The position numbers and the translations under genes were made by a program. A model generated the notes under the pieces. It was not told the DNA's origin. It saw only the letters and a program-made list of their open reading frames with translations, and made no database searches. Positions 802 to 39,609 of a stretch of 40,053 bases of DNA are shown here, piece by piece; within the stretch, counting starts at the first letter, position 1; every line of letters starts with the position of its first letter. Source of the stretch: a virus (Duplodnaviria; Heunggongvirae; Uroviricota; Caudoviricetes); the IMG/VR virus record IMGVR_UViG_3300042922_000906, positions 1 to 40,053 of that record; one strand, 5' to 3'.

Positions 802-865
802 ATTATTTCACCTTCTCACTTCCTCCAGAATAATAGGGTAGGGAAGTACCCTTAAAATATGTGTT

Positions 866-1882
866 TTATTGAACGGATTGATCTATTTTAATACCGAACA
901 TTTCTTGAAGTTTTTCATCTTTCTTATCCTTTAAATAAGACGAAGTTACTTCACTTGACTCATGATGAGCTATTAATTGCAATTCATCAAGTAAGAATCC
1001 ATTTTCTTTACCTAGTTTTTTGCACATATAATGTTCACCAGTAGAATAATTTTCAAGAGCAGAATGCCTGAAACTATGTACATTAAAACCAATTTTCTTA
1101 CCTTCAAGTTTTTCAAGAATGTTATTCATACAAATAAACCAATCATAAATTGCTTCAACTGATACAGGTTTTTTATTTTCATCTTTGCCTGTAATCCACA
1201 TTTCTCTAAAATCATCTGAACCGCGCTGATCTAGATATAGCTTTACACATCTTTTCGTTTCATCGAAATAAAGTAAGGGGAATTTCTTTGCTCTTTTGCC
1301 AATTACAATATTTGTGTGATTTCTATTTTCATCAAAAAAACAATCTTTATTCACTTGATATAATTCATTTTTTCGTCCTGCGGAATCATATGCAAGAAGA
1401 AGTAATGTAGCTTTCTGATAATCTTCTAACCTAATCAATTCGTCTTTAAGTTTCATGACTTGTTCATCTGATACAAAAACAATGTCTCGTACTGGGTCTT
1501 TAACCAGTCCTTTTACCTTACGGGCAACATTATTATCATATTCAATTTCATCGTCTTCCTCACAAAAAGTTAATAAACTTCTCAAGGCACTCATAAGTCT
1601 ATTATGGCGAGCATTTGAAACTTTTAAATCATCAGTAATCCAAAGACTAAATTTTCTAAAATCTTTCTTTCCTAATTCAAGAATATATTTATTATTAAGT
1701 TTTCTATAAATATAAAGCATAATTATTCGCCAATCGTTATAATATTGATCAATAGTACCTTTTGACTTTTTCTTTTGCTTTAACTCCATTTTATAATCTT
1801 CCATTATTTCTTTATTTAATGGATTAACCAATTCCCATTCTTGAGCATCAAATATATTATTATATACTTTTCCTCGTTTCAT
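866..1882 (-). CDS. tyrosine recombinase/integrase (YomM-like position in tail module)
   Basis: Catalytic set present: SAGRKNE (R), HSFRH (HxxR), AHHES (H), TSSY (Y); ATG at 1882 follows GGAGGTG RBS (track start 1894 lies in the RBS). Confidence 0.93.
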   Translation of the reverse strand: MKRGKVYNNIFDAQEWELVNPLNKEIMEDYKMELKQKKKSKGTIDQYYNDWRIIMLYIYRKLNNKYILELGKKDFRKFSLWITDDLKVSNARHNRLMSALRSLLTFCEEDDEIEYDNNVARKVKGLVKDPVRDIVFVSDEQVMKLKDELIRLEDYQKATLLLLAYDSAGRKNELYQVNKDCFFDENRNHTNIVIGKRAKKFPLLYFDETKRCVKLYLDQRGSDDFREMWITGKDENKKPVSVEAIYDWFICMNNILEKLEGKKIGFNVHSFRHSALENYSTGEHYMCKKLGKENGFLLDELQLIAHHESSEVTSSYLKDKKDEKLQEMFGIKIDQSVQ

Positions 1883-1912
1883 ATTTTGTTTCACCTCCAG
1901 TTGCTTAATGTT

Positions 1913-2588: not shown

Positions 2589-2624
2589 CCCTTTCTTTTA
2601 CAAATAAAATGCTTCTTTTAACGA

Positions 2625-17064: not shown

Positions 17065-17103
17065 TTTTGCATTCAGGATATAAAATCAACCTTTTATATT
17101 CTT

Positions 17104-19397: not shown

Positions 19398-19416
19398 TTA
19401 AAATTGATTTTTTATA

Positions 19417-27509: not shown

Positions 27510-27941
27510 AATAAAAACGCTCCTTATTAATTTATTTATATTATAATATCACAGCATAAACACCTAAACAATACATATTATATTATTTTAATTAAATCAA
27601 TCTATTTACCCTCTATTACGCTCAAATATGCCCTAGAATCAATTAAACGCCACTTACTTATATAATCTCTTATCTATCTTAAATAATTGCCATATGATCA
27701 AATAGCTGGCTATACATTCTATCAATAAGTAAGGAATACATATTTTACAACAAATACTATTCTAACCAATCCAATTAATCAAAACTTTTATATCTCATTT
27801 TTCTTATTATATAGTAGAAACATATTTAATCTAAAAATATTTTACAATTTCTTTTAATCCCAAAACCCTTACACGCTCTGTCTCTTAGACCTTAACACAA
27901 CACAAATAAACAAATAATAAAAAATATTTAAAAAAAACATG

Positions 27942-27970
27942 TTGACATTATTTAACTACAATATTATAAT
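27942..27970 (+). promoter_or_regulatory. consensus sigma-A early promoter with A-tract UP element
   Basis: TTGACA-17-TATAAT; A-tracts at 27905-27938. Confidence 0.88.
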
Positions 27971-27976
27971 AGAAAA

Positions 27977-28243
27977 TGTAATACAGCAATACAACAACAA
28001 ACACACAGCACTACTGATACTTGACAGGTTAATATTAATCCTTGACTTGCTACCATAGCAAGGGTAACATTCTTACAAGGCGTTTAGCACGTTATAGCTT
28101 CCAGTCAAGTATTCGCTGTGACTTATATAATGCAACGTTATATAATAGCGAATAGAAGCCTGAAAAATGGACATGGATACATACTAATAAATAAACTACT
28201 TTATAAAGATATATAATAAATTTAAATGTATATATCTTTTTTT
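27977..28243 (+). ncRNA. putative structured leader/sRNA ending in an intrinsic terminator
   Basis: Stems tacttgac/gtcaagta, ccttg/caagg, cttgcta/tagcaag, tattcgct/agcgaata; terminator aaagatatata/tatatatcttt + T7. Confidence 0.55.
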
Positions 28244-28287
28244 AATATCCTATACACAATACTATAATAAATAGGAGAGTGTATAAT

Positions 28288-28635: not shown

Positions 28636-28869
28636 ATGATTAAAGTATGGTTAAAAGATGACAAAACAGGAATTGAATGCGGAATTAATTCAGACGGTAA
28701 TTTATTTTTAGGAGATGATAAAAGCGGATATAATTTAAGAGACACAGAAGAAAATAGAGAATATATAATAAATGATTTTTGCAGGTATACAGGCAGACAA
28801 AAACCTGTAATAATGGCAAATGGTGAACCATATCAAGGTAATGAGACTTTATTAGAATTTAGCAGATAA
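28636..28869 (+). CDS. hypothetical early protein
   Basis: GGAGG RBS; stop begins boundary motif. Confidence 0.75.
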   Translation: MIKVWLKDDKTGIECGINSDGNLFLGDDKSGYNLRDTEENREYIINDFCRYTGRQKPVIMANGEPYQGNETLLEFSR

Positions 28870-28917
28870 AAAACTGATTTTATCACCCAAAAAATTTTAT
28901 TATAGGAGGTTAAAAGT

Positions 28918-29109
28918 ATGTATAATATACCTAAATTCAAAATTGGAGAAACAATTGAAGCCAACTGGGCAGGTGGACACGTTACAAGGCATGTTATTAC
29001 AGGAATAAAAAATACAAACCATGGGTTTTGGTATACTTGGGAAGATAGTAACAACGGCTCTGGAAGTGGTTTACATGAAGAGTACTTAAATAAATATACT
29101 AACAAATAA
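28918..29109 (+). CDS. small hypothetical protein (KOW/SH3-like pattern)
   Basis: KFKIGETIEA; GGAGG RBS; stop begins boundary motif. Confidence 0.7.
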   Translation: MYNIPKFKIGETIEANWAGGHVTRHVITGIKNTNHGFWYTWEDSNNGSGSGLHEEYLNKYTNK

Positions 29110-29156
29110 AATAACATTTTTAAAGACTATAAATTAAAAAAGGAGATAAAAAAACT

Positions 29157-29366
29157 ATGTTAAGACCTGAACACAAAAAGGAAATTCAAGAAAAAGGTTT
29201 ATATGATTTTATCTGCAATAACTATTGGAAATTATCAAAGGAAGATATGAAAGACCTGTTTAAAGAATTCAACCATGCAGTACATTCACTTGATAAAGAT
29301 ATTTGCAAAGAAGCTGAAAAAAATATGTTTGATGAACTTGAAATTGATGAATCAGAAGAAGAATAA
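29157..29366 (+). CDS. hypothetical early protein
   Basis: AAGGAG RBS. Confidence 0.7.
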   Translation: MLRPEHKKEIQEKGLYDFICNNYWKLSKEDMKDLFKEFNHAVHSLDKDICKEAEKNMFDELEIDESEEE

Positions 29367-29368
29367 CA

Positions 29369-29429
29369 GCAGAGGACTAGCCGACATAACAGTCTGCTAG
29401 TAATGCACTGGTAGCCGTTCCAAGTCGGC
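29369..29429 (+). ncRNA. twister self-cleaving ribozyme, type-P5 permutation
   Basis: GCA-GA-GGA-CUAGC..GCUAG-UAA-UGC-ACU-GGUA-GCCG-UUCCAAGU-CGGC: P1, P2, P4 plus pseudoknots UCC/GGA and ACU/AGU. Confidence 0.7.
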
Positions 29430-29470
29430 ACTATGTAAAATATTATAATAACTTGAAAGGATGATTTACT

Positions 29471-29830
29471 ATGTTAGCTACAGTAAACGGCGGAGTAATA
29501 CAAAATATTGAAGGACTTGAAATTGAAATATTATCACACAATTTTCATAATCCATATTGTGATATAGTTTGTACATATTTTACTAACGAAAACGGAAACA
29601 AAGTGGAACTGACTTATTACAAATACATTGATAAATACAACAATGCAGATGGAACAATAAGAAGCGGAAATGAAGTTTATATGTTTAAAAACGCAGACGA
29701 ATTACAACATTACAAAAGCTACAATTATAGAAATGGTATGAACTTACCAAGTAAATATATTGATTTAGCAAATTTACTAAAAAATATTCACAGCAAAATA
29801 GATTTTAACCAATATCAAGTTTCTCATTAA
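29471..29830 (+). CDS. hypothetical early protein
   Basis: GAAAGGA RBS. Confidence 0.75.
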   Translation: MLATVNGGVIQNIEGLEIEILSHNFHNPYCDIVCTYFTNENGNKVELTYYKYIDKYNNADGTIRSGNEVYMFKNADELQHYKSYNYRNGMNLPSKYIDLANLLKNIHSKIDFNQYQVSH

Positions 29831-29879
29831 AATTAAGTTTTAACTACAATATAATAACAAAGAAAGGAAAACAAAAACC

Positions 29880-29939
29880 ATGCATAATTTAAAACAGTGG
29901 GAAATTGATGAACTAGTAAAACGGTTGCTGAATGAATAA
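29880..29939 (+). CDS. 19-aa peptide ORF (MHNLKQWEIDELVKRLLNE)
   Basis: AGAAAGGA RBS; upstream of hairpin and relE. Confidence 0.3.
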   Translation: MHNLKQWEIDELVKRLLNE

Positions 29940-30031
29940 TATGTTGTGTTAGACTACATTATTATAAAACAAATAGTGTAGTTTATAGATAACATATAAA
30001 TGTTTAAAATATATAAAAAGAAGGTGACAAC

Positions 30032-30280
30032 ATGAAACAAATATACATAACAAAAACAGCTCAAAAACAACTTTTAAAATTAGAGAAGAAACTCCAAGTA
30101 AGATTATTAAATGCAATTGAAGGTTTAAAAAATATACCAATGATAGGAGATATAGACACATTCAAAACTGAAAAGGGAACTTTTAGGTTACGTGTTGGGG
30201 AATATCGAATATTATTTAGCATAGAATCTGATATAATATATGTAAAAGATATTGATACTAGAGGGGGTATATATAAATGA
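30032..30280 (+). CDS. relE: RelE/ParE-family toxin
   Basis: YITKTAQKQLLKL..GTFRLRVGEYRILF..IIYVKDIDTRG. Confidence 0.85.
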   Translation: MKQIYITKTAQKQLLKLEKKLQVRLLNAIEGLKNIPMIGDIDTFKTEKGTFRLRVGEYRILFSIESDIIYVKDIDTRGGIYK

Positions 30281-30492
30281 GTGCTAAAACTGAACTATTA
30301 GAATATATAAAAAACACTATAACAGAGGAACAGGCAGGAAAATTATTGATGCTTATTAAAAACGATTTGGTTTATATTGACAATTCACCGTTAACAGAGG
30401 ATGAACAAAGAGCAATTGAAAAAGCAGATCAAGAAATATTAAACGGTGAATTTATCTCACTGAATGAGGTAAGAAAACAAATTGAGGGTTAA
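30277..30492 (+). CDS. putative cognate antitoxin (acidic; downstream of toxin)
   Basis: ATGA overlap with toxin; PLTEDEQRAIEKADQEILNGEFISLNEV pattern. Confidence 0.65.
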   Translation: MSAKTELLEYIKNTITEEQAGKLLMLIKNDLVYIDNSPLTEDEQRAIEKADQEILNGEFISLNEVRKQIEG

Positions 30493-30507
30493 CGGGAGGT
30501 GTAATTT

Positions 30508-30699
30508 ATGAAAAAGGTAAAACAACTAAAAGGCTGGGGGATCTTTCAGAATAACAAAAAGGAAATAAAAGAATACGGTTTTAGTCATACAGTTTTACAT
30601 CCTAATAACATGGATTATTCATATATGTGTAGTCCTTCAGATAGTGACATGGAGTGTAATAGTTTGAATCAGGCTATAGATTGGATAAAAAATTATTAA
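30508..30699 (+). CDS. hypothetical early protein
   Basis: GGAGGTG RBS. Confidence 0.7.
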   Translation: MKKVKQLKGWGIFQNNKKEIKEYGFSHTVLHPNNMDYSYMCSPSDSDMECNSLNQAIDWIKNY

Positions 30700-30717
30700 T
30701 GGATGGAGGTTATAAAA

Positions 30718-30993
30718 ATGATTAATAAAGATTGGGCTATAACAAAATGGTGTAAATCAATAACGGATGATGACAAAGATTTATATACTAAAAAAACAAT
30801 AGAAAGTAAAGATACAGTGGATTTTAGGCTTTTAGATGATGATAAAATTATTTATGCCTATGGAATTATGGATAAAGAATATTTTAATGAGGGAGAAAAT
30901 GGTTTTATGCCACTTGATTATTATACAAACGATTATGGTTGTACTGAAATACAGTTTAAAAATTCTATAACAAAAGTATGGGAAACACTATAA
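30718..30993 (+). CDS. hypothetical early protein
   Basis: GGAGG RBS; start revised from track. Confidence 0.7.
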   Translation: MINKDWAITKWCKSITDDDKDLYTKKTIESKDTVDFRLLDDDKIIYAYGIMDKEYFNEGENGFMPLDYYTNDYGCTEIQFKNSITKVWETL

Positions 30994-31028
30994 CAGTTAG
31001 GTGTAAATAGTATGGAGGGTTTAAAAGT

Positions 31029-31193
31029 ATGCTTGAAAATAAAAAGAATTACTGGATTAACAGAATAACAAAGGAATTACAAAAGAACAATGCACCTATT
31101 TGGTATGATACTACGTTAATAAAGGAATTAGATTATTTTAAAATATTGGAGACAGATATAAATTATATGTCATTAATAACATTCAGGTTTTAA
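31029..31193 (+). CDS. small hypothetical protein (54 aa, MLENKKNYWINRITKELQ...); not in ORF track
   Basis: GGAGGG RBS; stop begins a perfect boundary motif. Confidence 0.6.
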   Translation: MLENKKNYWINRITKELQKNNAPIWYDTTLIKELDYFKILETDINYMSLITFRF

Positions 31194-31230
31194 AATATAA
31201 CTTTTATTGACATTTAAGGAGGATTGTAAA

Positions 31231-31770
31231 ATGATAGAATATGAAATATTAGTTAGTTATTTAAGGGAGAGTAATTTTAATGAGGATGGCTCACCTTCTG
31301 ATGATGATGATTATTTTAAAGTAATTAGAATTAGTGCAACTTCTAAAGAAGAAGCACTCAAAAATGTAGAAGAATTTATTTTTAATACTGATGGTTGGTG
31401 CGGTATTGAGGAAGATTATGTCGAAGGTACTCTAGACATAATAAAAATGTTATCAGCAGTAGGGCATAACATAAAACAATATATAACAAACAGAATAGGA
31501 GTAATAAAAATGGAGCATTTAAGAAAAGAATATGAAAATATAATCAATGCTGAATCAAATATTTTAAAAGAGATAGAAAAAGAAGTTTCACAAATGAATG
31601 AAATAGCATTACATAATTATGCAAATTCTATAGTCAGAAATTGTAGTATTGATAATATTAATAGAAATAAAGCAAAAGCCACAGGAACAACACTTGTATA
31701 TGATTTAATAATGGAAATTATTTATAGGCAAAATCAAGAAGAAAACCAAAAAAACCAATGTTTTAAGTGA
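31231..31770 (+). CDS. hypothetical protein, apparent fusion of two ORFs
   Basis: AAGGAGG RBS; internal AGGAG RBS + in-frame ATG at 31510. Confidence 0.65.
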   Translation: MIEYEILVSYLRESNFNEDGSPSDDDDYFKVIRISATSKEEALKNVEEFIFNTDGWCGIEEDYVEGTLDIIKMLSAVGHNIKQYITNRIGVIKMEHLRKEYENIINAESNILKEIEKEVSQMNEIALHNYANSIVRNCSIDNINRNKAKATGTTLVYDLIMEIIYRQNQEENQKNQCFK

Positions 31771-31819
31771 AATAATATAATAATTTAAAAGCGTGTATAA
31801 CAGACAGAAGGGGTATTTT

Positions 31820-31963
31820 ATGAGTGATAATAAAAAATCGGTAAAAATAACTTGGATAGATAAAAAGGTTGAGACTTTGACGGATTTAAATGAAAAGCAA
31901 ATAGCAATAATTGAGAGAGAAAGAGAAAATGGAAACATATTAATAATTGAATACATGGAATGA
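31820..31963 (+). CDS. small hypothetical protein (47 aa); not in ORF track
   Basis: GAAGGGG RBS, MSDNKKSVKITW... Confidence 0.5.
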   Translation: MSDNKKSVKITWIDKKVETLTDLNEKQIAIIERERENGNILIIEYME

Positions 31964-32004
31964 AAACCGTATTATGTTTAGGCAATAAAAGCAACGTTTT
32001 AAAG

Positions 32005-32120
32005 CCTTATAGTTTTAATAGAAACTCTAAATTACTATAGAACTTGATAAACTGGTTTCAAGTCAGTATAAAGTCCTGTCTTTATATGATAGATTTAGGG
32101 TTTCCACTAAGACTATAAGG
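32005..32120. ncRNA. putative structured RNA (three-way junction) between two boundary motifs
   Basis: Stems ccttatagtttta/taagactataagg, gaaactctaaat/atttagggtttc (G-U wobbles), acttga/tcaagt, tataaag/ctttata. Confidence 0.55.
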
Positions 32121-32175
32121 TGATAAAAGTAACATTTTAAGTTCTATAATACACAATAACAGGAGGTAATATATA

Positions 32176-32562
32176 ATGAGAGAATTTACTGAACAGGAAA
32201 TCAAACAAATTTCAAAAGATTTAGGTTGGAGCGAAGAACAAGTAAGAAAAGGTTATGATAAATTTGAAGTTTATAGTAGTTCCACCGTCATTGATAGAGC
32301 AATAGTAATTGAAGCTATCGCAGATGTTGAAAAATTTGATTCAGATTGGGAAGCCTGTAGACAAGCCGAAAAAGATGGTATTGAGTTTATTAATGATGTT
32401 GACGGATTAGAAAAAGGTTGTTACATAGATACACCCGAAAACAGAAAACATTGTATTGAAATGCTTAACAAATATCCAGAATATAGGATTGAAAGTTTAA
32501 TGAAAGAAAATCCAGAAAATGAGTATTGGAAAACATATAGAAAATATTTTGGTACTAAATAA
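32176..32562 (+). CDS. hypothetical early protein
   Basis: AGGAGG RBS; stop begins boundary motif. Confidence 0.78.
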   Translation: MREFTEQEIKQISKDLGWSEEQVRKGYDKFEVYSSSTVIDRAIVIEAIADVEKFDSDWEACRQAEKDGIEFINDVDGLEKGCYIDTPENRKHCIEMLNKYPEYRIESLMKENPENEYWKTYRKYFGTK

Positions 32563-32620
32563 AAGAAATATTTTAATACCTATAACAACAATATTATAAT
32601 ATTATGGAGGGTTTTATTTT

Positions 32621-32959
32621 ATGAATAATTGGATTAGAACAGACGGAACACAATTTATTAAAAAAATTAATAATACGACATTTGAAGTTGTGGAAGTAGT
32701 TGGTGCAGATGTATGCGGCTTTAAAATATCTCAACAAACAATTGATATTGAAGATTTAACAGAAGAAGATATTCAAGACGTTATAACAGGCTTTGGATAC
32801 GAGAGTATCGATGATGTTAAAAATATTTACGGTGATGATTACGCACAGATAATTGCAGAATGTGAAGCAGAGACAAATTGGAATACTATAGATAATTTAA
32901 ATTTTGATACAGAGGATGAAGCAATTATATACATTGAAAACAATATCATAAGCCTTTAA
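32621..32959 (+). CDS. acidic hypothetical early protein
   Basis: GGAGGG RBS. Confidence 0.78.
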   Translation: MNNWIRTDGTQFIKKINNTTFEVVEVVGADVCGFKISQQTIDIEDLTEEDIQDVITGFGYESIDDVKNIYGDDYAQIIAECEAETNWNTIDNLNFDTEDEAIIYIENNIISL

Positions 32960-33010
32960 AACTGGTATTTCAAACAAAGTCAAAAAATAATTTCATGGAG
33001 GTAATATATT

Positions 33011-33199
33011 ATGATTACAATTAAAGAGTATTATTCTGATACTATTTCATCGGGAGACATGAAAAAGAAAACAACATGTAAACATTGCAATGGAACATAT
33101 AGAACAGTAGACACACTTTTAGAAATTCCAGAAGATGATGACTATAATTCAGACGATATTATTGAACATTGCCCATTATGTAATCATTTGAATCATTAA
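33011..33199 (+). CDS. Zn-ribbon hypothetical protein
   Basis: CKHC...CPLC. Confidence 0.7.
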   Translation: MITIKEYYSDTISSGDMKKKTTCKHCNGTYRTVDTLLEIPEDDDYNSDDIIEHCPLCNHLNH

Positions 33200-33264
33200 A
33201 GAATGATTATGTGATAAAATGGCGAATTTGTTAATATAATTTACATTAAGGAGGTTAAACAGTT

Positions 33265-33519
33265 ATGAGTATACAAGAAATTGTTTATATTGCAGAAGAT
33301 GAAACAAAGTACACAAAAGGAAATATAGAAAAAGAAATAAATGAATTTATAGAGTCAAGATATATTAAATCATTTGACAATTTAAATAAAGAACTATTAG
33401 CTATGGTACTTTATAACTATGTGTTAGGAATACTTACTTGGGAACACCCAAATACTATACTTAACCAAATTGATAAAGACGAAGAAAAAGCAATTATTGA
33501 AATGTATAATAGACATTAA
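33265..33519 (+). CDS. hypothetical early protein
   Basis: AAGGAGG RBS. Confidence 0.72.
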   Translation: MSIQEIVYIAEDETKYTKGNIEKEINEFIESRYIKSFDNLNKELLAMVLYNYVLGILTWEHPNTILNQIDKDEEKAIIEMYNRH

Positions 33520-33655
33520 TATAATTCTAGTTTGCTGATATGAAGCAAACAAACTGGTTTAATCTTTACCAGTATAAAGAAAAGCTGTATATTACATATT
33601 TGTGGTGAAAAATTGAATTAAAAACTAAATAATTATAATAAGGAGTGTGTTTTAT

Positions 33656-33991
33656 ATGTATGAAAAATATATTAATATTTCTGAATTAAATACAGAAATC
33701 GAAACTGCAAGAGAAAAAAGAAATACAAGATTGTTACAGGAGCTTGAGCAAGATAAGAAAGAAGCTTTAAAAATCAATGACAAACAATATGAAATTGATA
33801 TGATGGAAAACAGAATAGTAGTTTCTGAGATACCAAAAATGCTATTATACACTATCGAATTGTGTAATATGAGAATGTGTAATATGAATAAATTTCATAA
33901 TTGCTTAACTGGTTTTTTAGAATGGAAAGAAGGAACACCAGACTACATAAAAAAGTCTGAATTAATTGGAAATCAATTATTTAGATTTTGA
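33656..33991 (+). CDS. hypothetical early protein
   Basis: AAGGAG RBS; start revised from track. Confidence 0.7.
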   Translation: MYEKYINISELNTEIETAREKRNTRLLQELEQDKKEALKINDKQYEIDMMENRIVVSEIPKMLLYTIELCNMRMCNMNKFHNCLTGFLEWKEGTPDYIKKSELIGNQLFRF

Positions 33992-34014
33992 CAAAATAAT
34001 TGGAGGTAAATATA

Positions 34015-34260
34015 TTGTCAAATAAAGTTACTTGTCAATCCTGCAAAGAGGACACTACAGAATATTTATTTTATACATTAATAGCAAAAGACGGTAGTAA
34101 AATAATTATTTGTGATAGCTGCTATCAAGAAATTAGCCGAATACAATTATTAGGGAATAAACGGCATTTAGAATATGTTGAACAGGGTAATAAAAGGTAT
34201 TTTAACACTATTCATTGGAAAAAATTAAAAATATCATGGGAGGATGTAACCGAATGTTAG
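34015..34260 (+). CDS. Zn-finger hypothetical protein
   Basis: CQSC...ICDSC; TTG start after GGAGG. Confidence 0.65.
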   Translation: MSNKVTCQSCKEDTTEYLFYTLIAKDGSKIIICDSCYQEISRIQLLGNKRHLEYVEQGNKRYFNTIHWKKLKISWEDVTEC

Positions 34261-34331
34261 ACTATGTTTTACTAATAACTATATCAGCAGGACTAATATA
34301 CAAACTAATACATAAGGTGGTTATCGAATAA
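34254..34331 (+). CDS. 25-aa hydrophobic peptide (MLDYVLLITISAGLIYKLIHKVVIE)
   Basis: GGGAGG RBS within previous gene; single TM-like segment. Confidence 0.35.
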   Translation: MLDYVLLITISAGLIYKLIHKVVIE

Positions 34332-34444
34332 ATTAAAATATTATAATATAATTATATGTTGATATGAAACATATAAACAGTTTTATAACCTTTTCTGAAA
34401 TTGAAAAAAAGATGTCAAACAAAAATACATAAGGAGTATGAAAA

Positions 34445-34558
34445 ATGAATTTAAAGGATTTTAGAAAGTTTATGCAATATTATAAAGACATCGGAATTAC
34501 TCCAACAGTGGGAGACTTACAGGATTTTAAAAAAGCATTGCAAATATTAAGAGGATAA
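34445..34558 (+). CDS. 37-aa hypothetical peptide
   Basis: AAGGAG RBS; MNLKDFRKFMQYYKDIGITPTVGDLQDFKK. Confidence 0.5.
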   Translation: MNLKDFRKFMQYYKDIGITPTVGDLQDFKKALQILRG

Positions 34559-34594
34559 ATTGTATATAATTAATTAAAGGAGCGTGTATTTATT

Positions 34595-35761
34595 ATGTTA
34601 AAGAAAGCAAATATAAACTGGACAGCTAAACAACTTGTAAAAATGACTGAAAAGGGAACTTTAAATTTTAACAACAGTGTGCAACGTGGTCTAGTTTGGG
34701 ATATTGAACGGAAAAGTTTATTAATTCATTCTATGATTGAAGGTTTTCCAATACCTGCATTTTTTGCAGCCAAAAACGACAATGGCTATGATATGCTTGA
34801 CGGAAAACAACGTTCAGATACAATTAGGGGATTTATAAATAATGAATATAAGTTGACAGATATTCCAGAGATATCGTGTGAAGGAGAAGAAACAACAGAT
34901 ATAAATGGATCAATGTTTACCGAACTTTCAGAAGAATTACAAGACAGAATAAAAGACTATTCATTAACTATCTATTATTTTGACGGTATTACAGAAGATG
35001 AAATTTCAGAAATGTTTTTCAGGCTTAACAATGGAAAACCATTGACAGCAATTGAATTAACAAGAGTTAAGGCAAAAAGCATAGAAAAAATAAAAGAAAT
35101 TGGCAAGCATGAATTGTTTAATTCTGCTTTAACAGTAAAGGCTATAAATAAATATACAAATGAGGATATAGTTATAAAGTCATGGGCATTACTGAATTGT
35201 GATAATCCCAGTTTTGAAACAAAATACATAAGACCATTAATAGAATCAGCTGAAATTACTGAACAACAAGAGCAGGACATTAAAACAGTATATAGTAGAA
35301 TCTTAGAAGTATATACCGATATTAAAGCCGTTGAAGATAAAGAAAGTAATAAAATTGCAAAAAGAATTATCACTCGTACTCACTTATTATCAATTGTTCC
35401 AGTTGCTTTATTATCAATTCAAAACAATATTAATAAAGATAGCTTTGCAGAGTTTGTACACTACTTTTTTAATGGTAAAAAATCAGCTTCAATTAATGAC
35501 ATTTATAATATTGCTAGCGGAAGTCATTCAGCTAGTGCAGACAATGTTAAAAAAAGAATAGATACTATCATGAGAGCATATAAGGATTATTTTAAAAAGG
35601 ATAGTATTAAAGATAATAAAATAAATAATGACCCCAAAATTGAAGTTAAAAAGGAAATAAAAAAAGAATCTAAAGGCGGCACTATAAGTATATTTGAAGA
35701 TTGGGAACAACCGCAAGTAATGCCGCATGAAGCTATAAAAAGCTTCTCAGGAATGTATTAA
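34595..35761 (+). CDS. DUF262 (ParB/Srx-like, GmrSD N-terminal) domain protein
   Basis: VQRGLVW..KSLLIHSMIEGFPIP..MLDGKQRS (QR and DGxQR motifs). Confidence 0.85.
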   Translation: MLKKANINWTAKQLVKMTEKGTLNFNNSVQRGLVWDIERKSLLIHSMIEGFPIPAFFAAKNDNGYDMLDGKQRSDTIRGFINNEYKLTDIPEISCEGEETTDINGSMFTELSEELQDRIKDYSLTIYYFDGITEDEISEMFFRLNNGKPLTAIELTRVKAKSIEKIKEIGKHELFNSALTVKAINKYTNEDIVIKSWALLNCDNPSFETKYIRPLIESAEITEQQEQDIKTVYSRILEVYTDIKAVEDKESNKIAKRIITRTHLLSIVPVALLSIQNNINKDSFAEFVHYFFNGKKSASINDIYNIASGSHSASADNVKKRIDTIMRAYKDYFKKDSIKDNKINNDPKIEVKKEIKKESKGGTISIFEDWEQPQVMPHEAIKSFSGMY

Positions 35762-35845
35762 TGATAAACAAAACAAAGTAGGACTATAGTATAGAAATAT
35801 ATTATAGTCCTTAATAATTTAAAGTATGGATAGGAGTATAAAACC

Positions 35846-36022
35846 ATGAAAAGTATAATATTAACTATAGATAATCTGATCACAAGGCTAAAGGCTAAAA
35901 ACCTATTTAAAACTGCTCAACGGCTGCTACAGGTTAAGACATTGATTATTAAATATAATCAGATTAAAAGTGATTTGTTGGCTGAAATAGAGCAAGCTAA
36001 GTTTGTTTTAAATATGTCATAA
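35846..36022 (+). CDS. small basic hypothetical protein (58 aa); not in ORF track
   Basis: AGGAG RBS. Confidence 0.55.
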   Translation: MKSIILTIDNLITRLKAKNLFKTAQRLLQVKTLIIKYNQIKSDLLAEIEQAKFVLNMS

Positions 36023-36087
36023 TGGTAGTCCTTAAAATCACAATTTCATTCACCGAAAAGACAAAAATATTTTCCAGAATATTTAAA

Positions 36088-36123
36088 ATTAATGTTGACA
36101 ACATTAATGGTATAGTGTAATAT
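36088..36123 (+). promoter_or_regulatory. sigma-A promoter with palindromic operator over the -35
   Basis: TTGACA-17-TAATAT; ATTAATGTTG-A-CAACATTAAT perfect inverted repeat. Confidence 0.7.
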
Positions 36124-36158
36124 TGTATTATAATAATTCAGTTAAAGGAGTGTTTAAA

Positions 36159-37877
36159 ATGTCAAATATAAAAAAATTTATCGGGGAATACGCTTACAGA
36201 CAAATTGAAAATATGGCATATAATACAGATGCATTGCGTACTGCATTGGTAACTCCTGCGAATGCAAGAGCCGTATTTTCAGATTTATCAGAATATGAAA
36301 TTAAATCAATTGTTTCAGATATTAGTAATAGCGGAACAATTGGAACGGTTAGAAATACCACTCAAGAAGAAATTAGAAAAGCATTTGCAGAAAGTGGATA
36401 TACAACTGTAATATTTGACGATGAACAAGCAATTACAGAATGTAAAAAATATTATAGTGCTGGTGAAGTAATTTGCACATATAACAATCTTACAAAACGT
36501 ATGCAAGAATATCACATGATAGTAGCTATTAAAAAAGATATTGATAATATAAAACGTTCCGAAAATCCACAAAGGGACGATGAATACGGAACAAGTATAT
36601 TAAATATTCAAATTGCACGTAACGGCTCACACATGAGTATTAAAAACAGATATAACCATACAGTAAGTCAATGTGATAGCACTTTTGACAATGATTTAAA
36701 CCATATAACAATGGGATTACAAAGCATGGTATTAGGATATTACGGATTTGCTGGAATAACAAAGGAAAATAACAAACAATATAATCATGTAGTGAATATA
36801 GGAGGAATATATTTAAAATATCACACTGAAAGAAATAATATATATTTCGGCAATTTTGTGCTTGATGGGGTAAACGGTGCAAGGTTTACAGATTCATCAA
36901 GATATTATATAACAAAAGGAGTAGAAGGCTACTATCATAAAATACCAATGGTACTTGATTTTAAAAATAAAATAGTAATTGATTTAATTGGTAATAATGG
37001 TAAAATTCCTTTAGTGTCAAGAGCAATGAAAGAAGGTATATTACACAGTGGCAATAAAGAACAGGCTGAAGAAATATGTACAGTATTTACAGAAGCAAAA
37101 AAGGAATTATTACAGGCTAATCCAAAAGCATTAAAATATATAGCAGAAGTATTTAGTTATGACTTCCAAAAACCATATAAAATAATAGGTATTTTGGGGA
37201 AGTTTACAGCAAATAGTATTGAAAAAATAACAGGCAGCACAAGAGCATTATTGTTTATAACTAATGATGATGATTTAAACATCGTTAAATTAAACAATGG
37301 AAAATTTGAAGCTAAAGATTTAAAGGGAGGACATAATTACAATATATCAAACTTTTATAGTCAAGGTGATTTTGAAGAAAAGCGCAAAAGTGGAAAAACA
37401 GCAACATATATTGTTCAGCAGGATAAACAATATCATAGAAAAATAAAAGAAAAAAACACTGGCAGAACTGGTATATATGTTAATAACAGAATGAAATATT
37501 TTGACGAAATGAGCGAATCAGAAATAGCACAGATTAATTTAAAAAAACGATTAGAAATTTACAAAGCTGATCAGCGTAAAAACGAAGTACAAGCAACAGA
37601 CTACACAACGGAAATAATGAAGATTGATAGTGAATTTATTACACTAAAAACTGAAATTATTTCAAGGCTTATGAATGCAAATATATACGAAGAATATGAA
37701 ATGCTTTCTAAGGTAATAAATTATAAATTAGCATGGTTGGTACGTGATATAGCAAAATTTAAAAATAGTGCAATTACAAAAGATTTTACAAGTAATAAAC
37801 AAGCACAAGATTCAATAAACAGTATAAACTCGGTAATTGCTCAATTATGGGAACATTTGAATAAAACACATAACTAA
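36159..37877 (+). CDS. large hypothetical protein (about 572 aa)
   Basis: AAAGGAG RBS before ATG 36159; contains QRDDEYGTSILNIQ..SIKNRYNH; function unknown. Confidence 0.8.
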   Translation: MSNIKKFIGEYAYRQIENMAYNTDALRTALVTPANARAVFSDLSEYEIKSIVSDISNSGTIGTVRNTTQEEIRKAFAESGYTTVIFDDEQAITECKKYYSAGEVICTYNNLTKRMQEYHMIVAIKKDIDNIKRSENPQRDDEYGTSILNIQIARNGSHMSIKNRYNHTVSQCDSTFDNDLNHITMGLQSMVLGYYGFAGITKENNKQYNHVVNIGGIYLKYHTERNNIYFGNFVLDGVNGARFTDSSRYYITKGVEGYYHKIPMVLDFKNKIVIDLIGNNGKIPLVSRAMKEGILHSGNKEQAEEICTVFTEAKKELLQANPKALKYIAEVFSYDFQKPYKIIGILGKFTANSIEKITGSTRALLFITNDDDLNIVKLNNGKFEAKDLKGGHNYNISNFYSQGDFEEKRKSGKTATYIVQQDKQYHRKIKEKNTGRTGIYVNNRMKYFDEMSESEIAQINLKKRLEIYKADQRKNEVQATDYTTEIMKIDSEFITLKTEIISRLMNANIYEEYEMLSKVINYKLAWLVRDIAKFKNSAITKDFTSNKQAQDSINSINSVIAQLWEHLNKTHN

Positions 37878-37956
37878 AATATTATAATAAACAGAACTTA
37901 AAAAGTTTACAGTAATCCTTCAAAACCGTAATAATATAATAATAGGAGTGCTTATA

Positions 37957-38250
37957 ATGAAAATATTACAAAAAGGTATAACACCAAACAGAACACATAT
38001 TCAAACAGAAGAATGGAATGAAAATTATTCATTTATGCCATATGGTAGCACTATGGCGAGCTATCCAAAATCAAAAGTAAGTCACGAAGGAACTTATGCA
38101 CCAAAGGGAAATCAAGTATACAGATTTGATTTTAATTTTAATTCAGAGACAGAAGCAAAGGACGCATTTAATAGTTTAATTAATGGAGAAAAAACTTTAG
38201 CTGATTTTAAAGCTAATTTGAATAAAAAAGAATATGCAGATTGTATATAA
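37957..38250 (+). CDS. hypothetical early protein
   Basis: AGGAG RBS; start revised from track. Confidence 0.72.
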   Translation: MKILQKGITPNRTHIQTEEWNENYSFMPYGSTMASYPKSKVSHEGTYAPKGNQVYRFDFNFNSETEAKDAFNSLINGEKTLADFKANLNKKEYADCI

Positions 38251-38331
38251 CAGAGGGCTTCTAAGGGATTGAGCCTATCAGCCTTATTCTAGCTATAACA
38301 GCGAATGATTTTTATATAGAGGGATTTTATT

Positions 38332-38535
38332 ATGAAGTATATTATGGAAGTTTGTCATTCAATTAAAATGAAAAGAAAAGATGGAGCAAATGCTTTTTGG
38401 TGTTTGTTTGGATTTATAGAACAGAATAAAAACGAAGAATATTTTTATACTGAATATGCAATAGAAAATCCTAGAACAATTGCAGTTAAAGAAATGCCTG
38501 AAGAGTGTAAACAGTGTATTATATCATTATTATAA
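38332..38535 (+). CDS. hypothetical early protein
   Basis: GAGGG RBS. Confidence 0.65.
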   Translation: MKYIMEVCHSIKMKRKDGANAFWCLFGFIEQNKNEEYFYTEYAIENPRTIAVKEMPEECKQCIISLL

Positions 38536-38548
38536 AGAGGGTTATACA

Positions 38549-38860
38549 ATGAGTTATGGAAAAGCAATGAAACATGCTAATAATCACAGAAAAGATAGGT
38601 TTTTTCAACCAATTTTAGGAATGCCCTTTAATGGATTGAAAGAAGGAGAACATATAGAGAGTCATTACAGTTTTGCCAAAAGAACTGCAACTGGATATAA
38701 TGTGAGAGTTTATGATAAAGAGAAACGAGAGTATGTTCAAGCATCAGAAGAATTTTTAACAGAAGACGAAGCAGTTGAGTTCATTAAAACACTTTCAGAA
38801 TATGATCAATTAGGTTCTAGAATATATAGCACTGAAGGAATGCATATAAGTGGCTGGTAA
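38549..38860 (+). CDS. hypothetical early protein
   Basis: AGAGGG RBS before MSYGKAM. Confidence 0.7.
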   Translation: MSYGKAMKHANNHRKDRFFQPILGMPFNGLKEGEHIESHYSFAKRTATGYNVRVYDKEKREYVQASEEFLTEDEAVEFIKTLSEYDQLGSRIYSTEGMHISGW

Positions 38861-38895
38861 TTAATGTTTACAGCATTAATTTACCATGATATGCT
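38860..38895 (+). promoter_or_regulatory. promoter/operator of the XRE gene
   Basis: ATTAATGTTTACAGCATTAAT (19/21 identical to 36088 palindrome); TTTACA-17-TATGCT with extended TG. Confidence 0.65.
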
Positions 38896-38904
38896 ATAAC
38901 AGAG

Positions 38905-39162
38905 GTGATGTCATTGAATCAAAATGAAATATTAGATTTAATAAACCAGTATAACAGTACAGACCGACAAATAATAAAAAATAATTTAAGGCGTTTAATG
39001 GATGATCACAATATAAGGCCAATTGACATAATGGAATTAGGATTTGCACGTAATAATGTATATGCCTGGACTAATCAAACTTCTGTAAATATACCTCTGT
39101 TTGAACAGGCATTACAAATAGCTTGTAAGTGGGAATTTACTATAGAAGAATTTTTGAAATAA
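38905..39162 (+). CDS. XRE/Cro-like helix-turn-helix regulator
   Basis: LRRLMDDHNIRPIDIMELGFARNNVYAWTN..PLFEQALQIA..TIEEFL pattern. Confidence 0.7.
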   Translation: MMSLNQNEILDLINQYNSTDRQIIKNNLRRLMDDHNIRPIDIMELGFARNNVYAWTNQTSVNIPLFEQALQIACKWEFTIEEFLK

Positions 39163-39215
39163 AGCAATAACAGATACGAGAACTTAAAACTATTATTTTA
39201 ATGGAGGTTATTAAA

Positions 39216-39542
39216 ATGACATATCAAGAAATACACAATATTATTTATAGTCCAGAACATAATTATACTTTAGTACAATCAACAGGGGATTTTCAATGTC
39301 CTGATACCGGATGGGGTTGTGTAATACATTGGAATACAGATAATAACAATATGTGGGCAGAAATATGCGAAGATGGAATTTGGGATATAACAAAATGTGA
39401 TGAACAAGTTAAACTTGATACAATTAAGTGGTGTGAAAATTTCGGTATAAAAAAAATAATTGATGTACAACACGCAAACATGACTTTAACAAACATATTA
39501 GGAATAGAAGAAGCGAAATTATACTATTTCGATGAATATTGA
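39216..39542 (+). CDS. hypothetical early protein
   Basis: GGAGG RBS; flanked by perfect boundary motifs at 39185 and 39550. Confidence 0.72.
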   Translation: MTYQEIHNIIYSPEHNYTLVQSTGDFQCPDTGWGCVIHWNTDNNNMWAEICEDGIWDITKCDEQVKLDTIKWCENFGIKKIIDVQHANMTLTNILGIEEAKLYYFDEY

Positions 39543-39609
39543 AAGCACTTAAAACAAGGATTTTAAGGGTTAAGACCAATACTACATTTCATGAAAAGCG
39601 AAAGGAAGA

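What the first reader, a model, noticed from the sequence alone, without database searches (positions are those of the whole stretch)
28867..39565. Accessory genes punctuated by a palindromic TAAAA-N6-TTTTA element: candidate phage gene-cassette system
Seen: perfect 16-bp copies at 28867, 29107, 31191, 31986, 32124, 32560, 39185 and 39550, and near-perfect copies at 29828 (N5), 31750, 32957 and 36033. At 28867, 29107, 29828, 31191, 32560 and 32957 the first three bases are the stop codon of the upstream ORF. A short spacer and GGAGG RBS follow. The 6-nt spacers all differ, but the last base is usually A in the transcription direction. Copies at 853, 2605 and 19399 mark gene ends on the minus arm. 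Established: inverted arms around a 6-bp core are the geometry of tyrosine-recombinase crossover sites (Xer/dif; Tn916-type Int tolerates heterologous 6-bp cores). Inference: the ORF+site units may be exchangeable cassettes (integron-like shuffling of anti-host genes). Alternatively the element is a binding site for a phage activator or antiterminator, since TATAAT-like hexamers lie about 5 nt downstream of several copies. A few chance copies are expected in AT-rich DNA; the positional coincidence with stop codons is the real signal.
Basis: partly seen in the sequence, partly recalled or inferred. Interest (0 to 1): 0.85.

Follow-up and report, generated by a model that had tools for sequence, protein, structure and literature searches.

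The report
Dif-like junction sites between phage genes
A strict AT-rich palindrome, really a 28-base site shaped like a recombinase crossover site, sits between genes 43 times in this large SPbeta-like Clostridium phage; it probably gives related phages individually addressed joints for swapping genes, but no enzyme has been shown to act on it.

Summary
TAAAA-N6-TTTTA occurs 12 times in the window (1.4 expected) and 43 times in the 140.8-kb phage record, against 1-7 at any other spacing. Nearly all copies lie between a stop codon and the next ribosome-binding site.

The phage is SPbeta-like (YonO RNA polymerase homologue). SPbeta, phi3T, SPR, SPbetaL1 and BUCT082 carry 30-37 copies each. In the Bacillus phages the site is a 28-bp palindrome, 11-bp arm, 6-bp core, 11-bp arm, which is the geometry of Xer/dif sites.

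There is no arm covariation and no stable hairpin, so this looks like a protein-binding DNA site. The window's recombinase (866-1894) is the YomM homologue and the best candidate binder. The association has exceptions.

In Bacillus relatives, homology blocks end exactly at these sites, and identical cores stay collinear while both flanking genes differ. Within a genome, cores are more unlike each other than chance predicts, and none is palindromic.

Most likely reading (about 45%): core-addressed crossover joints for like-for-like gene exchange. It does not behave like an integron or a promoter. This phage has no close relative, so nothing was tested on it directly.

This scan had already flagged the same element on other SPbeta-like DNA.

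The parts
853..868 (.). Perfect site. On the minus strand its TAA is the stop codon of the recombinase gene.
866..1894 (-). YomM-family tyrosine recombinase (342 aa), last gene of the late/lysis arm. Candidate site-binding enzyme.
   Evidence: PHROG integrase E 3.8e-27. Pfam Phage_integrase 25 bits, below the 27.1 cut-off. NCBIfam XerC E 6e-12. Homologue of SPbeta yomM. R, K, HxxR, H, Y present.
2605..2620 (.). Perfect site, 4 nt after the stop of ORF 2625-3116(-)
17081..17096 (.).
19399..19414 (.). Perfect site, 2 nt after the stop of the beta-CASP gene and followed by a terminator-like hairpin
21310..23913 (-). YonO-type single-chain RNA polymerase homologue. Marks the phage as SPbeta-like; not part of the element.
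   Evidence: 50% identity to SPbeta YonO over 97% of its length
27942..27970 (+). Canonical 12/12 sigma-A-type promoter that starts the early (plus) arm. Context only.
28867..28882 (.). Perfect site; its TAA is the stop of ORF 28636-28869
29107..29122 (.). Perfect site; its TAA is the stop of ORF 28918-29109
29828..29843 (.). Near copy (N5 spacing, or one mismatch at N6); its TAA is the stop of ORF 29471-29830
31191..31206 (.). Perfect site; its TAA is the stop of ORF 31029-31193
31750..31765 (.). One-mismatch copy (first T replaced by A); weak member
31986..32001 (.). Perfect site; left border of a 122-nt interval without an ORF
32124..32139 (.). Perfect site; right border of the ORF-less interval, upstream of ORF 32176-32562
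32560..32575 (.). Perfect site; its TAA is the stop of ORF 32176-32562
32957..32972 (.). TTTCA-arm variant; its TAA is the stop of ORF 32621-32959
36033..36048 (.). TTTCA-arm variant after ORF 35846-36022
39185..39200 (.). Perfect site upstream of ORF 39201/39216-39542
39550..39565 (.). Perfect site, 7 nt after the stop of ORF 39201-39542

Best explanation
Each copy is a double-stranded DNA site of about 28 bp. It has two inverted arms with an invariant inner TAAAA and lineage-specific outer bases, around a 6-bp core that is different at every junction. This is the layout of a Xer/dif-type tyrosine-recombinase crossover site.

I propose that a phage tyrosine recombinase binds the two arms as a dimer. 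The best candidate is the YomM-family enzyme encoded at 866-1894, at the end of the late operon. Strand exchange would be completed only between two sites with the same core. Sites within one genome would then not recombine with each other, so there would be no deletions or inversions. The same-numbered junctions of two related phages, or of a phage and a resident prophage, could cross over. That would replace the genes between joints like-for-like and keep gene order.

Shown here:
- the site, its strict spacing and its junction position
- the 11-6-11 palindrome in Bacillus relatives
- the lack of hairpin covariation
- mosaic boundaries exactly at sites, with cores retained
- depletion of near-identical and palindromic cores within genomes
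- co-occurrence with the recombinase family in two otherwise unrelated phage groups

Inferred only:
- that the recombinase binds these sites
- that it cuts them
- that core identity gates exchange
- that any of this happens in this particular phage
For: (1) Strict spacing. There are 43 copies at N6 against 1-7 at other spacings in this genome. The same holds for SPbeta (34), phi3T (30), SPbetaL1 (33), SPR (35), BUCT082 (37) and Perkons (17).

(2) Geometry. In 61 distinct Bacillus-phage sites both arms extend symmetrically: T(-5) 48/61 mirrors A(22) 55/61, Y(-4) mirrors R(21), and T(-3) mirrors A(20). This gives 11-6-11 = 28 bp.

(3) DNA site rather than hairpin. The arms match the consensus independently, with no covariation. 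The RNA fold is about -0.1 kcal/mol for four of eight window sites, and five of eight are no better than shuffles.

(4) Candidate enzyme.
- The window's recombinase is the yomM homologue.
- It has the R, K, HxxR, H, Y residues.
- It is the only strongly conserved protein (40-47% identity) shared with the otherwise unrelated phages phiLM33_01, GR1 and 6ec.
- Those three phages also carry N6-specific excess of the motif: 28, 8 and 14 copies.
- In the five homologue-bearing phages whose locus I opened (phiLM33_01, GR1, 6ec, VPE25, Ldl1), four have the gene directly after the lysin at the operon end; GR1's upstream neighbour is unannotated.

(5) Controls. Large AT-rich Firmicute phages without the recombinase show no excess: K 4/4, SPO1 0/0, LP65 4/0, A511 0/1. 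The same is true of the distant YonO phages TR-TP1 (4/5) and PMBT24 (0/6).

(6) Mosaic boundaries among SPbeta, phi3T, SPbetaL1 and SPR.
- 15.8% of homology-block ends have a perfect site within 30 bp, against 1.8% of random positions and 11% of all gene junctions.
- Junctions with a site are about three times more often breakpoints (odds ratio 1.5-5.2).
- Block ends map to the site edges.

(7) Core retention.
- Summed over the six pairs of Bacillus phages, 54 site pairs share the identical 16-mer while both 150-bp flanks are unrelated.
- The six such sites of SPbeta versus phi3T are collinear, and several have no protein-level similarity in 900-bp flanks.
- The chance rate of identical cores between unrelated genomes is 0.17%.

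(8) Core dispersion.
- Within-genome core pairs differing by one base or none number 24 against 43.5 expected (P = 0.00025).
- The within-genome rate is 1.13% against 2.13% between genomes (P = 0.002).
- Palindromic cores number 0 against 4.0 expected (P = 0.016).
- A binding-only site does not predict either depletion.
Against: No relative close enough for a breakpoint test of this phage exists in the collections searched. All recombination evidence is therefore borrowed from Bacillus phages.

The recombinase association has exceptions:
- Phage c-st has 31 copies (5-10 at other spacings) but no detectable YomM homologue.
- VPE25 and Ldl1 have the recombinase but only 7 and 4 copies.
- Human-gut YonO loci with a 24%-identical homologue have no copy within 10 kb.
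- Across 80 metagenomic YonO loci (1.0 Mb) the N6 form is not enriched at all: 28 against 13-40 at other spacings.

The SPbeta, SPbetaL1 and Perkons YomM proteins carry HxxK instead of HxxR. That may mean poor or no catalysis in exactly the phages where the mosaic evidence was found.

Only about 16% of breakpoints lie at sites. Sites are concentrated in variable regions, which inflates the odds ratio.

Cores of sites with both flanks conserved diverge at 3.5% against 5-6% for the flanks, which is not significantly slower.

Crossovers in laboratory phi3T-SPbeta hybrids fall in long identical blocks and cannot be assigned to sites.

In this phage the outer arms are asymmetric and tied to the direction of transcription: AG upstream, GG downstream. 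The GG partly coincides with the ribosome-binding site.
Confidence: 0.45

Rival explanations
1. The sites are docking sites for a dimeric DNA-binding protein whose job is not recombination. One possibility is a roadblock or silencer placed between genes, like mycobacteriophage stoperators. Another is a late-expressed, recombinase-derived protein that shuts off the early arm. Mosaic boundaries at the sites would then be a passive by-product: a conserved 16-28-bp island is one of the few identical stretches in variable regions, so ordinary short-homology recombination uses it.
For: - SPbeta already has a tyrosine-recombinase-fold protein, MrpR/YopR, that has lost catalysis and works as a repressor on a repeated element (PMC10516654).
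- SPbeta-type YomM has Lys in place of the second catalytic Arg.
- The sites are intergenic. The 12.5-kb early arm from its promoter to the window's end has no intrinsic terminator-like site.
- Only about 16% of breakpoints are at sites.
- Cores are not measurably more conserved than flanks.
- Phage c-st has the sites without a YomM homologue.
Against: - A spacer that a binding protein does not read should not be selected to differ between sites or to avoid symmetry, yet near-identical and palindromic cores are depleted.
- The window's own recombinase has all catalytic residues.
- MrpR ChAP-seq gave only ten peaks, all at SPBRE promoters, so the known repressor does not occupy these 34 sites.
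- The element is also abundant in phiLM33_01 and present in 6ec, phages not known to be temperate (my knowledge for 6ec).
Confidence: 0.3
2. The element acts in the mRNA, between cistrons. It would be a weak AU hairpin or an AU-rich protein-binding signal that guides RNA processing, or that controls translation of the next gene, in the manner of T4 RegA or RegB targets.
For: - In this phage the site always lies between a stop codon and the next ribosome-binding site.
- The flanks are oriented with transcription: AG at -5/-4 and GG at +19/+20.
- The start codon follows 14-46 nt later in most copies.
- The phage encodes a beta-CASP RNase-like protein, and a twister ribozyme lies in the same operon.
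Against: - There is no covariation between arms, and the 0/17 pair is depleted in complementarity in this phage.
- The folds are about -0.1 kcal/mol for four of eight sites, and five of eight are no better than shuffles.
- In Bacillus phages the outer arms are a true palindrome, a property of double-stranded protein sites.
- An RNA role predicts neither the core-dispersion signal nor the mosaic-boundary signal.
Confidence: 0.07
3. The element is part of a promoter: an activator, sigma-factor or UP-like site that gives each accessory gene its own start of transcription.
For: - Five window copies have a TATAAT-like box 5-6 nt downstream.
- A few copies abut a TTGACA box: window 31191 and phiLM33_01 24072 and 45448.
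- In c-st several copies (five by my count) are followed 11-12 nt later by an ATTAAATTAAA box.
Against: - -10-like boxes after the site occur in 4/43 copies against 34/181 controls.
- In nine copies an SD-like sequence starts 2-5 nt after the site, leaving no room for a -10 box and a transcribed leader.
- Promoter-like matches in the region equal the shuffled expectation, 100 against 94.
- YonO uses a single start site for the late operon (PMC5467207).
- The real early promoters look different: TTGACA, 17 nt, TATAAT, with a CTACAATA block.
Confidence: 0.05
4. Integron-like system: each ORF plus site is a cassette that is excised as a circle and reinserted at other sites.
For: - The flanked ORFs are small, mostly of unknown function and all in one orientation.
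- A recombinase is encoded in the phage.
Against: - No precise loss of a cassette between two sites was found among five Bacillus phages: 0 events against 115 conserved site matches.
- Cores of neighbouring sites all differ, and similar cores are selected against.
- The site is 28 bp, not a 57-141-bp attC. There is no attI next to the recombinase. The recombinase matches XerC/XerA models and gives no hit to the integron-integrase models.
Confidence: 0.05

Closest known systems
dif modules flanked by pdif (XerC/XerD) sites on Acinetobacter plasmids (PMC6449649)
   Same: - 28-bp sites with two about 11-bp inverted arms around a 6-bp centre.
- Many copies per replicon, concentrated in accessory regions.
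- The sites bracket gene modules that differ between related replicons.
- In both systems the recombination step itself is inferred from comparative genomics.
   Different: - pdif sites resemble the host dif and are assumed to use host XerC/XerD. These arms (TAAAA inner half) do not resemble Bacillus dif as I recall it, and a phage-encoded recombinase is the candidate.
- These sites sit at single-gene junctions in a virus, 30-45 per genome.
- Each has a unique core kept in order between relatives.
PeSL (promoter-early stem-loop) cassettes of T4-type phages (PMC2839356)
   Same: - A short repeated intergenic element in hyperplastic regions full of small ORFs.
- Gene replacements between related phages have their ends in the element.
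   Different: - PeSLs are a sigma-70 promoter plus a terminator hairpin. They recombine by homology and yield mini-circles.
- Here there is no promoter, no stable hairpin and no precise cassette loss.
- The middle of the element differs at every copy.
Stoperators of cluster A mycobacteriophages (L5 gp71 repressor sites; from my own knowledge, not read here)
   Same: Dozens of copies of one short site in short intergenic gaps, often touching stop codons, spread over a temperate phage genome.
   Different: - Stoperators are asymmetric 13-bp sites without a variable centre, bound by the immunity repressor.
- These sites are dyad-symmetric with a free 6-bp core.
- The known SPbeta repressor does not map to them.
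SPBRE, the MrpR/YopR operator of SPbeta (PMC10516654)
   Same: - A repeated element of SPbeta-like phages.
- It is bound by a protein with a tyrosine-recombinase fold.
   Different: - SPBRE is a 15-bp motif at about ten promoters, and gave all ten ChAP-seq peaks.
- TAAAA-N6-TTTTA has 34 copies in SPbeta, at gene ends.
- The promoter-associated repeat in this phage is a different sequence next to TATAAT.
Integron attC/attI with IntI
   Same: Promoterless small genes in one orientation, each followed by an imperfect palindrome recognised by a tyrosine recombinase.
   Different: See the membership test: site size, the lack of attI, recombinase type and the lack of precise cassette gain or loss all differ.

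Membership tests
Xer/dif-type tyrosine-recombinase core site | Two inverted binding arms of about 11 bp | tested here: met
   Met for Bacillus SPbeta-like phages: 61 distinct sites give T-Y-T-N-N-W-TAAAA ... TTTTA-W-N-N-A-R-A. In this phage only the inner 5-6 bp are symmetric; the outer bases are conserved but asymmetric.
Xer/dif-type tyrosine-recombinase core site | Central region of fixed length (6-8 bp) that is not sequence-specific for binding | tested here: met
   N6 gives 43 copies against 1-7 at N2-N11. Core positions are near-random except for R at the last base.
Xer/dif-type tyrosine-recombinase core site | A cognate tyrosine recombinase with a complete catalytic set | tested here: inconclusive
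   The candidate at 866-1894 has R, K, HxxR, H, Y and co-occurs with the site in two unrelated phage groups. The exceptions are c-st, VPE25, Ldl1 and the gut loci. SPbeta-type YomM has HxxK.
Xer/dif-type tyrosine-recombinase core site | Binding, cleavage at the core borders and strand exchange at the site | not testable with these tools
   Only indirect evidence is available: homology blocks end at the site edges, cores are retained with both flanks replaced, and cores are dispersed.
Integron (IntI, attI, attC cassettes) | attC of 57-141 bp with paired core sites, and an attI next to intI | tested here: not met
   The site is 16-28 bp. No distinct entry site lies beside either recombinase gene.
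Integron (IntI, attI, attC cassettes) | Integron-type integrase | tested here: not met
   For 866-1894 the NCBIfam matches are XerC and XerA models only, with no hit to the integron-integrase models at E <= 0.01.
Integron (IntI, attI, attC cassettes) | Precise gain or loss of single cassettes between sites | tested here: not met
   0 cases in ordered comparisons of five Bacillus phages, against 115 conserved site matches.
PeSL regulatory cassettes | A strong sigma-70-type promoter within the element | tested here: not met
   -10-like boxes in 4/43 copies against 34/181 controls.
PeSL regulatory cassettes | A terminator stem-loop | tested here: not met
   Four of eight sites fold at about -0.1 kcal/mol. 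No terminator-like sites are found in 27.5-40 kb.
SPBRE / MrpR operator | About ten promoter-located copies bound by MrpR | tested here: not met
   SPbeta has 34 copies at gene ends, against ten ChAP-seq peaks at promoters. The SPBRE sequence itself was not available to me.
Stoperator-type repressor sites | Bound by the phage immunity repressor and blocking elongation | not testable with these tools
   The distribution is similar. The published MrpR peaks do not include these sites.
Tyrosine recombinase (protein 866-1894) | Phage_integrase catalytic domain with R-K-H-R-H/W-Y | tested here: met
   All residues align with homologues. PHROG integrase E 3.8e-27. XerC model E 6e-12. Pfam scores 25.0 bits, just under the 27.1 cut-off. 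No PDB sequence match.

The most novel reading that the evidence does not exclude
SPbeta-like phages, and a second group of large Firmicute siphoviruses that share the YomM-family recombinase, carry a built-in, core-addressed site-specific recombination system. Dozens of dif-like joints, each with its own 6-bp address, would let the late-expressed recombinase exchange single genes or gene blocks between co-resident relatives at matching joints only. Accessory genes would be shuffled while gene order is preserved. This would be programmed modular exchange, distinct from integrons, dif modules and homology-driven mosaicism.
Probability: 0.35. Interest if true: 0.9.

Novelty: new variant of a known kind. 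Interest (0 to 1): 0.7.

Why it matters
Phage genomes are mosaics, and how exchange so often lands neatly at gene borders is a long-standing question. A virus-encoded set of individually addressed crossover sites would be a concrete mechanism for it.

It would also help explain how anti-defence and other accessory genes move between SPbeta-like phages.

The element is present 30-37 times in SPbeta and phi3T, which grow in Bacillus subtilis. The idea can therefore be tested directly with existing genetics: delete or mutate yomM, change a core, and score crossovers.

If the sites instead prove to be roadblock or silencing sites, they would be a second recombinase-shaped regulatory system in this family, beside MrpR.

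I found no paper naming the element.

Tried and rejected
(1) Chance or composition: rejected.

(2) By-product of a TAA stop plus a T-rich leader: rejected by the N6 specificity.

(3) YonO promoter: rejected. YonO uses one start site for the late operon, and the sites are rarer there: 4 of 36 junctions against 35 of 167 in the early arm.

(4) Identity with SPBRE: rejected on copy number and location.

(5) Extended hairpin: rejected.

(6) Close relatives of this phage for a direct breakpoint test: none found.
- Megablast against phages found nothing.
- IMG/VR protein-seeded loci L002-L006 share only single genes.
- Two exact junction patterns had no match.
- The neighbour-gene seed found nothing.
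- The metagenome YonO loci are at most 63% identical.

(7) L003 carries the same core (TATAAC) as window site 31191, at a similar distance from a shared gene. About 0.4 such matches are expected by chance, so I do not count it.

(8) The Xer-like recombinase at 52217-53116 as the conserved partner: rejected, because it is absent from the Bacillus phages and from c-st.

(9) Laboratory phi3T-SPbeta hybrids as a live test: crossovers lie in identical blocks of 1.4-18 kb. Several of those blocks begin or end at a site, but the crossover point cannot be resolved.

(10) Core conservation against flanks: not significant.

(11) Whole-record motif counts for metagenome contigs: the tool does not hold those records.

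No read-level evidence for variants, circles or RNA ends could be sought, and read laying was not used.

Full report
**What is in the window.** The window is the first 40 kb of a 140,832-bp IMG/VR virus record with 29% G+C, estimated about 72% complete.
- Bases 1-27,500 are a minus-strand arm. It carries a recombinase, virion, portal and terminase genes, an exonuclease, a beta-CASP hydrolase and an 867-aa protein.
- The 867-aa protein is 50% identical to SPbeta YonO, the single-chain RNA polymerase of that phage. The phage is therefore SPbeta-like, with a Clostridia-type composition.
- A largely non-coding stretch (25.4-28.2 kb) ends in a perfect sigma-A-type promoter at 27942-27970.
- That promoter starts a plus-strand arm of small, mostly unrecognisable ORFs. 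The arm runs on to about 121 kb.

TAAAA-N6-TTTTA occurs 12 times in the window against 1.39 expected, and 43 times in the record.
- Every other spacing from N2 to N11 gives 1-7 copies. Rearranged arms also give 1-7.
- 35 of 43 copies are intergenic by crude ORF calls, although only 12% of the genome is non-coding.
- The typical order is stop codon, 0-7 nt, site, then a ribosome-binding site. The start codon follows 14-46 nt after the site.
- The TAA of the site is the stop codon in about 12 of 43 copies. That is the one-in-three a random frame gives, so the junction position is the signal, not the stop codon.
- One-mismatch copies are not enriched, apart from a recurrent TTTCA arm that includes 32957 and 36033.

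**The site is longer than 16 bp.** I oriented the 43 copies by the direction of transcription.
- They share W at positions 0 and 17, A-G at -5/-4, a purine at the last core base, and G-G at +19/+20.
- The G-G is conserved even where the real ribosome-binding site lies further on.

In four Bacillus SPbeta-like phages I fetched whole, 61 distinct sites give a clean palindrome: T-Y-T-N-N-W-TAAAA-N6-TTTTA-W-N-N-A-R-A. That is two 11-bp arms around a 6-bp core.

Several results point to a double-stranded DNA site for a dimeric protein rather than an RNA element:
- The arms match their consensus independently, with no covariation. In this phage the 0/17 pair is even depleted in complementarity.
- As RNA, four of eight window sites fold at about -0.1 kcal/mol, and five of eight are no better than shuffled sequence.

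**It is not a promoter, SPBRE or a YonO signal.**
- -10-like boxes after the site are rarer than at motif-less junctions: 4/43 against 34/181.
- In nine copies an SD-like sequence starts 2-5 nt after the site, so there is no room for a -10 box.
- SPBRE, the known repeated element of SPbeta, is a 15-bp promoter-located operator of the MrpR repressor. It gave ten ChAP-seq peaks (PMC10516654), whereas SPbeta has 34 copies of the present site.
- YonO starts the late operon at a single site (PMC5467207). The sites are rarer in the late arm: 4 of 36 junctions against 35 of 167 in the early arm.
- Three full-text searches found no paper naming the element.

**Which protein?** The ORF at 866-1894 is a tyrosine recombinase.
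- PHROG integrase E 3.8e-27, XerC model E 6e-12, and Pfam just under its cut-off.
- It is the homologue of SPbeta yomM, which holds the same position in the tail/lysis module.
- Its nearest relatives (40-48% identity) are not SPbeta-like. They are large Firmicute siphoviruses of 75-95 kb: Leuconostoc phiLM33_01, Geobacillus GR1, Staphylococcus 6ec-like, Enterococcus VPE25-like and Lactobacillus Ldl1.
- In the five I opened, four have the gene directly after the lysin at the end of the late operon; GR1's upstream neighbour is unannotated.
- It is the only strongly conserved protein this phage shares with them.

Three of those phages also show N6-specific excess of the site: phiLM33_01 28 copies, GR1 8 and 6ec 14. 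Large AT-rich phages without the gene show none: K, SPO1, LP65 and A511. The distant YonO phages TR-TP1 and PMBT24 also show none.

The association is imperfect:
- VPE25 and Ldl1 have the gene but few sites.
- c-st has 31 sites and no detectable homologue.
- 80 metagenomic YonO loci (1.0 Mb) show no N6 excess.
- Gut loci with a 24%-identical homologue have no TAAAA sites within 10 kb. They do carry a TGGAA-N6-TTCCA palindrome of the same geometry.

All catalytic residues are present in this phage's enzyme. SPbeta, SPbetaL1 and Perkons have HxxK in place of HxxR.

A second, Xer-like recombinase at 52217-53116 is absent from the Bacillus phages and from c-st.

**Do the sites mark exchange points?** This phage has no relative close enough to ask. 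I therefore used SPbeta, phi3T, SPbetaL1 and SPR, which align in 30-44 blocks of 93-96% identity per pair.
- Of 526 collapsed block ends, 15.8% have a perfect site within 30 bp. The figure is 1.8% for random positions and 11% for all gene junctions.
- Junctions with a site are breakpoints about three times as often as those without (odds ratio 1.5-5.2).
- At such junctions the homology stops at the edge of the site, and the site itself is shared.
- Many sites keep the identical 16-mer in two phages although both 150-bp flanks are unrelated: 6-11 per pair, 54 in all. The chance rate of identical cores is 0.17% per site pair.
- The six SPbeta/phi3T cases are collinear. Several have no protein-level similarity within 900 bp on either side.
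- SPR shares the left flank of one site with SPbeta and the right flank with phi3T.

The limits of this evidence:
- Most breakpoints are not at sites.
- Sites cluster in variable regions.
- Cores with both flanks conserved diverge at 3.5% against 5-6% for the flanks, which is not significant.
- Crossovers in laboratory hybrids fall in long identical blocks and cannot be placed.
- No precise cassette loss between two neighbouring sites was found. This argues against integron-like excision and for replacement.

**A test that separates active recombination from mere binding.** If sites with equal cores recombine, selection should keep the cores within one genome apart and should avoid symmetric cores. 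I tested this in six genomes: this phage, SPR, Perkons, phiLM33_01, 6ec and GR1.
- Core pairs differing by one base or none, in either orientation, number 24 against 43.5 expected from column shuffles (P = 0.00025).
- No core is palindromic, against 4.0 expected (P = 0.016).
- Against an empirical between-genome baseline, the within-genome rate is 1.13% against 2.13% (P = 0.002). Identical cores number 0 of 2131 pairs within genomes and 14 of 8309 between them.
- Pairs differing by two bases or fewer are not depleted, so the effect is short-range.

A protein that merely binds the arms gives no reason for either depletion.

**Verdict.** The element is real and family-wide. It is best read as a dif-like protein-binding DNA site.
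- Most likely (about 0.45) it is a set of core-addressed crossover joints served by the YomM-family recombinase.
- The main rival (about 0.3) is a non-recombining docking or roadblock site whose conservation makes it a passive crossover point.
- RNA-level, promoter and integron-like readings are each unlikely.

Nothing was shown directly for this phage.

The same element had already been flagged and followed up by this scan on other SPbeta-like genomes. I re-derived the main claims independently.
- the link to a recombinase shared with a second phage group
- the exceptions to that link
- the HxxK observation
- the core-dispersion test
- the negative test for cassette excision

Noticed in passing
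window 29368-29429 (+): Full-length match to the Type-P5 twister self-cleaving ribozyme (RF02684): 39.9 bits against a gathering score of 37.6, with the conserved GCAGAGG, GUAAUGC and CCAAG blocks present. It lies between ORFs 29157-29366 and 29471-29830 in the early operon.
   Followed up: partly
window 25400-28250: A 2.8-kb stretch almost free of ORFs between the two divergent arms. It has a sharp strand-composition switch: GC skew +0.31 at 26-27 kb and -0.66 at 27-28 kb. It holds one 120-aa minus-strand ORF with a hydrophobic N-terminus (27147-27509) and the 12/12 promoter at 27942-27970. It could hold an origin or non-coding RNAs.
   Followed up: no
window 19417-20865 (-): A beta-CASP / metallo-beta-lactamase protein with an RMMBL RNA-specificity domain (RNase J/CPSF-like) lies 445 nt downstream of the YonO polymerase gene.
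   Followed up: no
window 30032-30492 (+): A RelE-like toxin ORF (phrog_1213, E 4.6e-15) overlaps by 4 nt a following 71-aa ORF with no family match. This may be a reversed toxin-antitoxin pair.
   Followed up: no
window 36123-37877 (+) and L002:9977-11734: A 584-aa ORF with no family match is shared at 81% DNA identity with an otherwise unrelated IMG/VR contig. Homology stops inside the gene ends, and L002 has no junction site there. This is gene-sized mosaicism without the element. In the window the gene has its own TTGACA promoter at 36095.
   Followed up: partly
G000:C1:52217-53116 (outside the window): A second, XerC/XerD-like tyrosine recombinase (299 aa; XerD structure E 9e-32). Its stop lies 4 nt before a junction site. 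It is absent from the Bacillus SPbeta-like phages and may be this phage's integrase.
   Followed up: partly
SPbeta yomM (L047:1802-2803) and the SPbetaL1 and Perkons homologues: These YomM proteins have HxxK where the window's enzyme and its closer relatives have the catalytic HxxR. The activity may be altered or lost.
   Followed up: partly
Clostridium phage c-st, loci L132-L141: 31 junction-type sites and no YomM homologue. Several are followed 11-12 nt later by a conserved ATTAAATTAAA box, which suggests a composite with a promoter-like element in that phage.
   Followed up: no
L208-L215 (human-gut YonO loci): No TAAAA sites, but a TGGAA-N6-TTCCA palindrome occurs 14 times in eight near-identical loci and never at other spacings. 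A 24%-identical YomM-like gene lies about 2.5 kb from yonO. Perkons has a TGAAA-N6-TTTCA variant (10 copies). The arms may co-vary with the recombinase lineage.
   Followed up: no
Geobacillus phage GR1, loci L100-L103: Seven of the eight sites are preceded by a T-rich run ending in TTAT(T/C/A)A. The site seems embedded in a longer repeat there.
   Followed up: no
window 31986-32139: Two perfect sites bracket 122 nt without any ORF. A first-stage note proposes a structured RNA here. The Rfam gathering search of the window found nothing at this position.
   Followed up: partly
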